A DNA stretch of 64,000 nucleotides from a virus: the IMG/VR virus record IMGVR_UViG_3300028591_000203, positions 1-64,000 of that record; one strand, given 5' to 3'. A program made the position numbers and the translations under genes. Positions 8,081 through 8,365 of this stretch are shown in pieces. Each line of letters opens with the position of its first letter. Positions within the stretch are counted from its first letter, which is position 1. The notes beneath the pieces are model-generated. The model was not told the origin of the DNA. It ran no database searches and was given only the letters and a program-made list of their open reading frames with translations.

Positions 8081-8121
8081 AAAAACCCCTTAAGACTTAG
8101 TCTTAAGGGGTATATTTTTTT
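8081..8121. terminator. bidirectional intrinsic terminator
   Basis: A5-ccccttaagact/agtcttaagggg followed by T-run. Confidence 0.8.
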
Positions 8122-8365
8122 ATTTATTTCTCCATACGATTCTACCAGCGGTTAGATCATATGGTGAAATCTCTACTTCTACAGAATCACCTTCAGTAAT
8201 TTGAATGGAATTCATTCTTAACTTACCAGAAATAGTACAAGTAATAATGCTTTCAGTATTATCAATTCGTACCTTAAATTTTGTACCAGGTAAAGTATCT
8301 ACTACTAATCCTGTTACACCAATATGCTCTTCTTTAGGTAATTGATTCTTGTTACATTTTTTCAT
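8120..8365 (-). CDS. infA: translation initiation factor IF-1
   Basis: [68 protein letters not shown] aligns across its length with E. coli IF1 [67 protein letters not shown]. Confidence 0.85.
   Translation of the reverse strand: [81 protein letters not shown]

What the first reader, a model, noticed from the sequence alone, without database searches (positions are those of the whole stretch)
8120..8365. Phage-encoded translation initiation factor IF-1, insulated by hairpins
The 81-aa product aligns with bacterial IF1 over its full length, including [33 protein letters not shown]. It is a stand-alone minus-strand gene sitting between a strong bidirectional terminator (8081-8121) and an imperfect hairpin (8400-8460). 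Translation factors are rare cargo even in huge phages. Carriage of infA suggests manipulation of start-codon selection or ribosome availability during infection.
Basis: partly seen in the sequence, partly recalled or inferred. Interest (0 to 1): 0.6.

Follow-up and report, generated by a model that had tools for sequence, protein, structure and literature searches.

The report
Jumbo-phage copy of initiation factor IF-1
A large bacteriophage carries its own, somewhat altered copy of the small bacterial protein IF-1 that helps ribosomes start making proteins; such phage copies have been reported before in huge phages, so this is a solid but fairly ordinary new example whose exact role is untested.

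Summary
The 81-aa minus-strand ORF at 8120-8365 is real and belongs to the bacterial IF-1 (InfA) family: TIGR00008 scores 90.8 bits against a 61.15 cut-off, and the AlphaFold model lies 0.8-1.0 Å from solved IF-1 structures. The window is a jumbo phage with split multisubunit RNA polymerase, a divergent PolB and an SbcC-like gene. The IF-1 gene sits at the same syntenic position in related 155-306 kb phage contigs, so it has been inherited in this lineage for a long time.

The "stand-alone, insulated" part does not hold. The downstream bidirectional terminator (8085-8111) is strong, and relatives have a terminator at the same place. The upstream hairpin is weak and absent in diverged relatives. 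IF-1 is the last gene of a co-directional four-gene block.

Most 30S-contact residues are kept, but three are changed (Q55, A73, T44). An 8-9 residue Lys-rich N-terminal tail carries the positive charge that the OB core has lost. Gln at the R46 position also occurs in housekeeping infA of some gut Clostridia, so it is compatible with IF-1 function.

Phage IF-1 is already reported for Lak phages, huge phages and Jug phages. Verdict: a new member of a known kind, of moderate-low interest. The most likely role is a phage-supplied 30S A-site initiation factor, possibly with altered helix-44 remodelling.

The parts
8120..8365 (-). IF-1 (infA-like) gene, 81 aa. Residues 1-9 are a Lys-rich disordered tail; residues about 15-80 form the S1-like OB barrel with the short helix 47-51.
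8374..8380 (-). Shine-Dalgarno AGGAGAG, 8-10 nt upstream of the ATG at 8365.
   Evidence: read directly from the sequence; conserved in L005-7, with AGGAG also present in L001 and L004
8085..8111 (.). Bidirectional intrinsic terminator (12-bp stem, 3-nt loop, A-run/T-run flanks). It ends the IF-1 transcript on the minus strand and the convergent plus-strand transcript.
   Evidence: A terminator occupies the same place in L001 (different stem sequence) and L004.
8399..8452 (-). Imperfect hairpin in the 93-nt gap between the upstream gene and IF-1. It contains the perfect 16-nt palindrome TATCAATTAATTGATA (8417-8432). It may be a partial terminator or an RNA stability/processing element; it is not conserved outside near-identical relatives.
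8459..8956 (-). Conserved upstream partner gene (165 aa, MITVIRND...), always immediately 5' of IF-1 in this phage lineage. Function unknown.
8977..10782 (-). 601-aa gene of the same co-directional block (Pro/Cys/His-rich core). Function unknown.
10829..12055 (-). 408-aa first gene of the block (N/Q-rich repeats).
12107..12136 (.). Bidirectional terminator-like hairpin bounding the block upstream. A sigma-70-like site (11 of 12 matches) at 12122-12095 overlaps it.

Best explanation
The gene encodes a functional, phage-adapted IF-1. It has been inherited vertically in a lineage of low-GC jumbo phages that carry their own multisubunit RNA polymerases.

It is probably transcribed as the last cistron of a four-gene unit (408 aa, 601 aa, 165 aa, IF-1) that ends at the bidirectional terminator 8085-8111, and it is translated from its own strong SD.

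The protein folds as the IF-1 OB barrel and most likely binds the A site of the host 30S subunit, between helix 44, the 530 loop and uS12, as cellular IF-1 does. In that way it would supply or replace IF-1 during infection, keeping 30S initiation complexes forming on phage mRNAs after the host's own gene expression has been shut down.

Two Arg residues that grip helix 44 (the equivalents of R46 and R64) are replaced, and the lost positive charge reappears in a Lys-rich N-terminal tail. I infer that the phage factor docks normally but remodels helix 44 differently, and so tunes subunit joining or initiation stringency.

Shown: family membership, fold, retention and invariance of most contact residues, synteny, and the terminator. 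Inferred: 30S binding, co-transcription, the supply/replacement role, and the altered helix-44 remodelling.
For: Family and fold:
- TIGR00008 scores 90.8 bits against a 61.15 cut-off.
- PDB IF-1 hits reach 4e-20.
- The AF2 model has pLDDT 87, with rmsd 0.8-1.0 Å and TMt 0.94-0.96 to 4ql5 and to 30S-bound E. coli IF1 9fco_I.

Contact residues:
- The contact lists come from PMC10913371, 10.1101/2023.10.27.564398 and PMC4611024.
- Retained: K11, E12, P26, K31, G47, K48, R50, M51, Y69, D70, R75, R79. All except M51 and R75 are invariant in the clade, which averages 79% column identity and goes down to 65% identity with the window protein.
- Contact positions are enriched among invariant columns: 11 of 17 against 22 of 64, Fisher p = 0.024.
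- Gln at the R46 position also occurs in housekeeping infA of gut Clostridia inside secY-adk-map-infA-rpmJ operons, so it is compatible with IF-1 function.

Phage residence and age:
- Jumbo-phage hallmarks are present in the window.
- The synteny block is identical in L001, L004, L005, L020 and L021. IF-1 identity of 64-67% lies within the range of its neighbours, 37-81% in the four diverged loci.
- No cellular genome among 185,579 species exceeds 54% identity over the full length.
- Gene GC is 30.5% against 29.4% for the window.

Operon reading:
- Gaps between the genes are 46, 20 and 93 nt.
- Terminators lie only at the two ends of the block.
- The upstream hairpin is absent in L001 and L004.

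Charge relocation:
- The core (residues 10-81) has net charge -1 and pI 5.75, and the tail carries +3. Cellular IF-1s have net +3 to +4 and pI 9.3-9.7.
Against: - There is no experimental evidence for any phage IF-1; none was found in four literature searches.
- Three contact residues are changed. R46 becomes Q, where 146 of 150 diverse representatives have R or K and none has Q. R64 becomes A, where 143 of 150 are basic. H/Y35 becomes T. Half of the clade also replaces the near-universal R66 with Ile. Binding to the A site could therefore be weakened or altered.
- The acidic core is atypical for IF-1.
- The phage's genes show nothing unusual in start codon or SD use that would call for a special factor.
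- The timing of expression is unknown, and the three co-transcribed neighbours have no assignable function.
- The host is unknown.
Confidence: 0.6

Rival explanations
1. A-site blocker or host-shutoff factor. The phage protein docks in the 30S A site like IF-1 but, lacking the R46 and R64 contacts with helix 44, fails to support productive initiation. It would act as a competitive inhibitor of host IF-1 to damp host translation.
For: Two helix-44-contacting arginines are lost, and in half of the clade the 530-loop contact R66 is lost too. The core is acidic. An IF-1-derived peptide inhibits growth in PMC10913371.
Against: The phage depends on the same ribosomes, and its genes use ordinary SD/ATG initiation, so a general inhibitor would hurt the phage as well. 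Q at the R46 position is tolerated in housekeeping IF-1 of Clostridia. The uS12 and 530-loop contacts and R41 are strictly conserved, as expected for a working factor.
Confidence: 0.12
2. RNA chaperone or transcription antiterminator. As an S1/cold-shock-like OB protein it would act mainly on phage RNA off the ribosome, melting structure or suppressing termination for the phage RNA polymerases. From my own knowledge, such activities have been reported for E. coli IF1 (Phadtare and colleagues, 2007); I did not check this here.
For: The OB fold is shared with the S1/Csp superfamily (one search lists RsgA and eIF1A OB domains). The phage encodes its own RNA polymerases. The region is rich in strong terminators.
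Against: The residues that are invariant in the clade are the ribosome-specific ones: the uS12 contacts Y69 and D70, the 530-loop contacts G47 and K48, and R50 and R79. Every top structural and sequence match is IF-1 itself, not a Csp protein. The loss of surface basic residues argues against a general RNA-binding role.
Confidence: 0.1
3. Resistant replacement or decoy. The phage, or a host defence system, inactivates host IF-1 during infection, and the divergent phage copy escapes this. Phosphorylation of IF1 by the phage T7 kinase, cited in PMC6375957, is an example of such targeting.
For: Surface residues and the N-terminus differ systematically from cellular IF-1. Targeting of IF1 by a phage kinase is documented.
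Against: No kinase or IF-1-modifying enzyme was identified in the window, and no defence system targeting IF-1 is known to me. This is pure inference.
Confidence: 0.08
4. Recent host capture, passenger gene or mis-binned host DNA with no phage-specific role.
For: The closest cellular relatives are Clostridia IF-1s at 56-65% identity.
Against: The gene has a conserved syntenic position across phage contigs that have diverged to 50-80% protein identity. The clade is monophyletic in the NJ tree, 33 of 81 columns are invariant, and the tail is conserved. Gene GC equals phage GC. No close cellular counterpart exists.
Confidence: 0.03

Closest known systems
Bacterial translation initiation factor IF-1 (InfA; TIGR00008, PF01176), e.g. 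C. difficile 6C00, E. coli 1AH9/9FCO chain I, T. thermophilus 1HR0 chain W
   Same: - Single S1-like OB domain with the short helix between strands 3 and 4.
- 50-55% identity to solved IF-1s.
- Conserved contact residues: K39, R41, M42, Y60, D61, R66 and R70 equivalents.
- Scores above the equivalog cut-off.
   Different: - Encoded by a phage, not next to rpmJ/rpsM.
- 8-9 residue Lys-rich N-terminal tail and a one-residue insertion in the loop between strands 2 and 3.
- N19 to G, H/Y35 to T, F/Y44 to S, R46 to Q, R/K64 to A.
- Acidic core with pI 5.75.
IF1 genes already reported in huge and jumbo phages (Lak megaphages, Al-Shayeb et al. 2020 huge phages, Jug phages, Sinorhizobium phage Phosso)
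   Same: It is a phage-borne infA homologue, presumed to redirect or sustain host translation.
   Different: - Only 42-50% identical to those copies, and it belongs to a separate clade with its own synteny.
- Lak and LR756511 copies keep the canonical basic residues. Phosso and LR756508 have Asn at the R46 position.
- The N-terminal tail and the acidic core are specific to this clade.
A 72-76 aa phage IF-1 group with the signature LPGTKF...CTxSGKLR...G(I/V)ITWR (P0030-P0059)
   Same: - Shares G27 and T44 and, with half of the present clade, Ile at the R66 position.
- It is the neighbouring group in the NJ tree.
- Also found on phage-like contigs, one of which has a phage multisubunit RNAP beta subunit.
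   Different: - Lacks the N-terminal tail.
- Mostly keeps basic residues at the R46 and R64 positions.
- Shares no synteny with the window.
eIF1A / aIF1A (archaeal and eukaryotic orthologues)
   Same: They share the same OB core binding the A site (Foldseek hits at E 1e-5 to 1e-3). From my own knowledge, eIF1A has a basic N-terminal tail that reaches towards the mRNA and P site, which is a possible functional analogy for the Lys-rich tail seen here.
   Different: Scores are far below the aIF-1A/eIF-1A cut-offs (about 19 bits against 91-130). There is no helical C-terminal domain, and the tail is much shorter.

Membership tests
Bacterial IF-1 (InfA, TIGR00008 equivalog / PF01176) | Profile score above the curated cut-off over the full model | tested here: met
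   TIGR00008 scores 90.8 bits against 61.15, covering model positions 1-68 of 69. PF01176 scores 62.8 against 30.2.
Bacterial IF-1 (InfA, TIGR00008 equivalog / PF01176) | Single-domain protein of about 70-75 aa with a five-stranded S1-like OB barrel and a short helix between strands 3 and 4 | tested here: met
   The AF2 model has pLDDT 87, with strands 15-25, 29-34, 40-45, 61-66 and 73-80 and helix 47-51. Rmsd to solved IF-1 is 0.8-1.0 Å. The length of 81 aa is due to an 8-9 residue disordered N-terminal tail.
Bacterial IF-1 (InfA, TIGR00008 equivalog / PF01176) | Conserved 30S-contact residues (T. thermophilus/C. difficile numbering: K2, P18, R23, G38, K39, R41, M42, R46, Y60, D61, R64, R66, R70) | tested here: inconclusive
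   Retained: K2, P18, R23 (as K), G38, K39, R41, M42, Y60, D61, R66 and R70. Changed: R46 to Q and R64 to A, plus H/Y35 to T. Q at the R46 position also exists in housekeeping infA of some Clostridia.
Bacterial IF-1 (InfA, TIGR00008 equivalog / PF01176) | Binds the 30S A site and stimulates IF2/IF3-dependent initiation; essential gene function | not testable with these tools
   This needs biochemistry or genetic complementation.
Bacterial IF-1 (InfA, TIGR00008 equivalog / PF01176) | Typical chromosomal context in many bacteria (map-infA-rpmJ-rpsM) | tested here: not met
   The gene is in a phage context, lying between an uncharacterized 165-aa gene on one side and convergent genes of the SbcC-like region on the other. 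Cellular controls L019 and L033 show the canonical operon. Context is not a strict defining feature of the protein family.
Phage-encoded translation factors of huge and jumbo phages | Located on a bona fide phage genome and conserved among related phages | tested here: met
   Phage RNAP subunits, divergent PolB, SbcC-like and virion proteins are present. Syntenic copies occur on 155-306 kb viral contigs.
Rho-independent (intrinsic) terminator, bidirectional | GC-rich stem-loop followed by a U-tract on each transcribed strand, placed after convergent stop codons | tested here: met
   Site 8085-8111 has 12 pairs (6 GC) and a 3-nt loop, with T-runs on both strands. It lies 8 nt after the IF-1 stop codon and 6 nt after the plus-strand ORF stop codon. 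Relatives have a terminator at the same place.
   Only about 34 nt separate the hairpin base from the ATG, and most of that is the SD region. No promoter-like site lies on the minus strand at 8366-8470. The hairpin lacks a clean U-tract and is absent in L001 and L004. Promoters of the phage's own RNAPs cannot be scanned with these tools.

The most novel reading that the evidence does not exclude
This clade, together with the neighbouring 'GxITWR' phage group, may represent a phage-specific IF-1 lineage that has been re-engineered. On this reading it still docks on uS12 and the 530 loop, but it has given up the arginines that distort helix 44 (R46, R64 and in many members R66) and has gained a basic N-terminal tail analogous to the eIF1A N-terminal tail. 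Phage-loaded 30S subunits would then initiate with altered kinetics or fidelity, for example faster 50S joining or relaxed IF3/IF1 proofreading. That would amount to a viral reprogramming of the bacterial initiation checkpoint, not a simple top-up of factor supply.
Probability: 0.2. Interest if true: 0.65.

Novelty: new member of a known kind. Interest (0 to 1): 0.35.

Why it matters
Phage-encoded translation factors are widely catalogued, but none of the IF-1 copies has been characterized, as far as I could find. This clade offers a compact, well-defined test case: an 81-aa protein with a confidently predicted fold. It also differs from cellular IF-1 at the residues that structural work assigns to helix-44 remodelling, which makes it close to a natural mutant. 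If the protein is active on ribosomes, comparing it with host IF-1, with Q55R/A73R back-mutants and with tail deletions would show how helix-44 distortion by IF-1 controls subunit joining and start-site fidelity, and whether jumbo phages exploit that checkpoint. If it merely tops up IF-1 supply after host shutoff, it is one more auxiliary gene.

Tried and rejected
1. Phage-exclusive R46Q signature. It first looked absolute, with 0 Q among 150 representatives and 46 near homologues. A targeted scan of 185,579 species genomes then found 10 Clostridia MAG loci with [10 protein letters not shown] next to rpmJ, so I withdrew the claim.

2. Using those Clostridia as a host or donor clue. I rejected this as unsupported: their loci have 45-51% GC against 29% for the phage, overall identity is only 47-54%, and they do not group with the phage clade in the NJ tree.

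3. The hairpin palindrome TATCAATTAATTGATA as a recurring regulatory motif. There are 8 hits with up to 3 mismatches against 4.9 expected, and only one exact copy.

4. An Rfam family for either hairpin or the leader. Nothing is near a gathering score; the sub-threshold hits are terminator stems.

5. Guilt by association through the operon partners. There are no Pfam or PHROG hits for the 165-, 601- and 408-aa genes apart from a sub-threshold Otubain hit at E 0.007. The AF2 model of the 165-aa protein is poor (pLDDT 60), and Foldseek against PDB gave nothing below E 0.1.

6. Nucleotide-level relatives among cultured phages. The only hit is a 331-nt, 72% match to Bacillus phage vB_BpuM-BpSp inside the SbcC-like gene.

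7. tRNAs or other translation genes in the window. No tRNA was found, and the partial Pfam/PHROG sampling of ORFs found no other translation gene.

8. Unusual start-codon or SD usage that might explain a need for a special IF-1. None was found.

I repeated it with alignment A4.

Full report
**Observation**

The minus-strand ORF 8120-8365 encodes 81 aa ([19 protein letters not shown]...GRIVWRNK). Its ATG is preceded by AGGAGAG at 8374-8380. It matches Pfam PF01176 (62.8 bits, cut-off 30.2) and the NCBIfam infA equivalog TIGR00008 (90.8 bits, cut-off 61.15; model positions 1-68 of 69). Archaeal and eukaryotic IF-1A models score only about 19 bits. The best solved-structure relatives are all bacterial IF-1: C. 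difficile 6C00 at 3.7e-20 and E. coli 9fco_I at 9e-18. Homology starts at residue 9-10, so the first eight or nine residues are an extra Lys-rich tail.

An AlphaFold2 model built on 42 homologues has mean pLDDT 87.3. It shows the five-stranded OB barrel and the short helix at 47-51, with a low-confidence N-terminus. Foldseek places it 0.8-1.0 Å from S. pneumoniae IF-1 and from E. coli IF-1 bound to the 30S subunit, with target TM-scores of 0.94-0.96.

**What the window is**

The window has 29% GC and no tRNA genes. It encodes split phage-type multisubunit RNA polymerase subunits (phrog_25005, phrog_3015), a divergent family-B DNA polymerase (PF20286), an SbcC-like protein, a helicase and a head-tail joining protein. 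An NrdG-like activase suggests an anaerobic host. At the nucleotide level only a 331-nt stretch resembles a cultured phage, Bacillus phage vB_BpuM-BpSp. This is an uncultured jumbo phage.

**Relatives and synteny**

The large protein database holds 15 clusters of 79-81 aa proteins at 65-99% identity. Below that, identity steps down to ordinary 72-73 aa IF-1s at 63% or less. Members of the 79-81 aa clade lie on contigs of 155, 261, 265 and 306 kb, some of them listed in IMG/VR.

Local tblastn shows the same gene order in L001, L004, L005, L020 and L021: RNAP subunit and p225 on one strand, then DHH phosphoesterase, 408 aa, 601 aa, 165 aa and IF-1 on the other, converging on the SbcC-like gene. 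IF-1 identity (64-67%) is within the range of its neighbours, 37-81% in the four diverged loci. The gene's GC (30.5%) equals that of the phage. A scan of one genome for each of 185,579 prokaryotic species found nothing above 54% identity over the full length. The gene is therefore an old resident of this phage lineage. It is not a recent capture and not contamination.

**Transcription signals**

The hairpin at 8085-8111 is a textbook bidirectional terminator: 12 pairs, dG -24.6 kcal/mol, z -5.8 and -5.1, and T-runs on both sides. L001 has a terminator of different sequence at the same place, and L004 one with a similar stem.

The upstream element at 8399-8452 is real but modest (z -2.85). It begins 7 nt after the stop codon of the 165-aa gene and lacks a clean U-tract. 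It contains a perfect 16-nt palindrome that does not recur in the window. It is identical in the 97%-identical relatives L005-7, which is uninformative. It is missing from L001 and L004, where only 39 and 18 nt separate IF-1 from the upstream gene.

No promoter-like site lies between the hairpin and the start codon, and no Rfam family fits. The nearest strong terminator upstream is at 12107-12136. I therefore read IF-1 as the last cistron of a four-gene unit. In this particular phage the hairpin may act as a partial terminator or as an RNA stability element. Promoters for the phage's own polymerases cannot be scanned here, so this remains an inference.

**Ribosome-contact residues**

The contact lists come from three sources:
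- the C. difficile IF-1 NMR and modelling paper (PMC10913371);
- a T. thermophilus 30S-IF1 study (10.1101/2023.10.27.564398);
- a review (PMC4611024).

The table uses T. thermophilus numbering and maps each residue through alignment A2.

| Status | Tth residue → phage residue |
|---|---|
| Retained | K2→K11, E3→E12, P18→P26, R23→K31, G38→G47, K39→K48, R41→R50, M42→M51, Y60→Y69, D61→D70, R66→R75, R70→R79 |
| Changed | H/Y35→T44, R46→Q55, R64→A73; also N19→G27 and F/Y44→S53 |

Within the phage clade 33 of 81 columns are invariant, and they include ten of the twelve retained contacts. Contact positions are enriched among invariant columns (11 of 17 against 22 of 64, one-sided Fisher p = 0.024).

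I compared these positions with the 150 best representatives of 50%-identity clusters, taken from an exhaustive search that found 5,785 hits at E ≤ 0.001. The counts are:

| Position (C. difficile numbering) | 150 representatives | Phage clade (15 proteins) |
|---|---|---|
| R46 | R or K in 146, Q in none | Q in 15 |
| R64 | basic in 143 | A, N or L in 14 |
| R66 | R in 146 | I in 8 |

**A necessary correction**

The genome scan, whose pattern included GKLR[MLV]N[KS]IQ, recovered ten uncultured gut Clostridia, Oscillospiraceae and Eubacteriales MAGs whose infA has the same [10 protein letters not shown] motif. One of them, on a 572 kb contig, sits in a complete secY-adk-map-infA-rpmJ-rpsM-rpsK-rpsD-rpoA operon. 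Gln at the R46 position is therefore rare, but it is compatible with housekeeping IF-1. These bacteria have 45-51% GC and do not group with the phage clade, so I treat the shared motif as convergence and not as a host clue.

**Charge**

The OB core (residues 10-81) has net charge -1 and pI 5.75. E. coli, C. difficile and T. thermophilus IF-1 have net charge +3 to +4 and pI 9.3-9.7. The nine-residue tail adds +3. The tail ([8 protein letters not shown]-like) is conserved across the clade.

**Other phage IF-1s**

tblastn finds IF-1 homologues in 36 phage records. Some of these records are short unannotated fragments, or bacterial-looking contigs labelled as phage.
- Lak megaphage and LR756511 copies keep the canonical basic residues.
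- Sinorhizobium phage Phosso and LR756508 have Asn at the R46 position, and LR756508 also has GII.
- The homologue in Bacteroides phage SJC03 has a basic N-terminal extension of about 30 aa.

A large group of 72-76 aa proteins (P0030-P0059) carries G27, T44 and Ile or Val at the R66 position. Two of its members that I looked up lie on 80-87 kb contigs with almost no Pfam hits, and one of these contigs has a phage RNAP beta subunit (phrog_2987, 6e-63). A canonical-signature control lies in a ribosomal operon.

In a neighbour-joining tree of 239 distinct core sequences, the window's clade (19 tips) is monophyletic, and this group is a close neighbour. The tree rests on 69 columns and has no support values.

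**Mechanism**

The evidence best supports a working, phage-adapted IF-1 that occupies the 30S A site. The simplest role is to supply or replace host IF-1 after host shutoff.

The arginines that the cited work assigns to contacts with A1493 (R46) and C1411 (R64) are replaced, the latter linked in the review to disruption of the A1413-G1487 pair. The charge they carried has moved to an N-terminal tail. Together these changes suggest that helix 44 is remodelled differently, which could change subunit-joining kinetics or initiation stringency. That last step is inference.

The phage's own genes show ordinary initiation signals: 63 ATG and 7 TTG among 70 genes, with an SD in 61. Nothing in the window therefore points to a special class of start sites.

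The rivals are an A-site blocker, an RNA chaperone or antiterminator, a resistant replacement or decoy, and a passenger gene. All are less likely, for the reasons given in their entries.

**Novelty**

IF1 is explicitly listed among translation genes of huge phages (PMC7162821), of Lak phages (10.1101/356790) and of glacier-foreland huge phages (PMC11748809). An IF-1-type factor is a core gene of Jug phages (PMC12880540). I found no experimental study of any phage IF-1.

This is a new member of a known kind. It has clade-specific features (the tail, the acidic core and the loss of two helix-44 arginines) that make it a reasonable candidate for biochemical study. Interest is moderate to low, at 0.35.

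Noticed in passing
window 7947-8078 (+): A 43-aa Lys-rich ORF with a good SD converges on IF-1 and shares the bidirectional terminator. In the 97%-identical relative L005 it is split across two reading frames, so it may not be a real gene.
   Followed up: partly
window 6946-7848 (+): An SPFH/Band-7 gene (PF01145, 2e-28; phrog_200) with its own terminator at 7855-7884. It is present in the window and in L005-7 but absent from L001, L004 and L020, where IF-1 converges directly on the SbcC-like gene. It looks like an insertion into the synteny block.
   Followed up: partly
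window 47056-48252 (-): A major facilitator superfamily transporter (PF07690, 2e-26) encoded in a jumbo phage, which is unusual cargo.
   Followed up: no
window 8977-10782 (-): A 601-aa protein with an extreme Pro/Cys/His-rich core (HHHHHH, CPPCPPPCPPPCP). It has no Pfam or PHROG hit and is conserved in the related phages.
   Followed up: partly
window 10829-12055 (-): A 408-aa protein with tandem N/Q-rich repeats (QQQNAQTNNT, 3-4 copies). Only its N-terminal part of about 160 aa is well conserved in L001 and L004.
   Followed up: no
window 20029-20544 (+): An NrdG-like radical-SAM activase (PF13353, 2e-38), which suggests an anaerobic host.
   Followed up: no
window 8459-8956 (-): The conserved 165-aa partner gene of IF-1. 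Its true start is probably the ATG at 8956, not the GTG at 8971. It is found only in this phage group (13 homologues). The AF2 model is poor (pLDDT 60) and there is no fold match.
   Followed up: yes
proteins P0030-P0059; loci L016 5001-5222 and L018 5001-5219: A sizeable group of 72-76 aa IF-1 homologues replaces the near-universal Arg (C. difficile R66, a 530-loop contact) with Ile or Val. The two members whose contigs I examined (P0032, P0042) lie in phage-like contexts. This may be a second phage IF-1 lineage.
   Followed up: partly
loci L026-L034 and L056 (e.g. L033 4001-4225): Uncultured gut Clostridia and Eubacteriales MAGs have housekeeping infA, inside the secY-adk-map-infA-rpmJ operon, with Gln instead of the conserved Arg46 that contacts A1493.
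   Followed up: yes
locus L012 (Bacteroides phage SJC03, record 629-934): A gene annotated as hypothetical is an IF-1 homologue with a basic N-terminal extension of about 30 aa. This is a second, independent case of a phage IF-1 with a basic tail.
   Followed up: no
window 12107-12136, 6891-6920 and 7855-7884: Further strong terminator hairpins (13-bp stems) sit at gene-block boundaries. The 6.8-12.2 kb region has 10 terminator-like sites against 2.3 expected.
   Followed up: no
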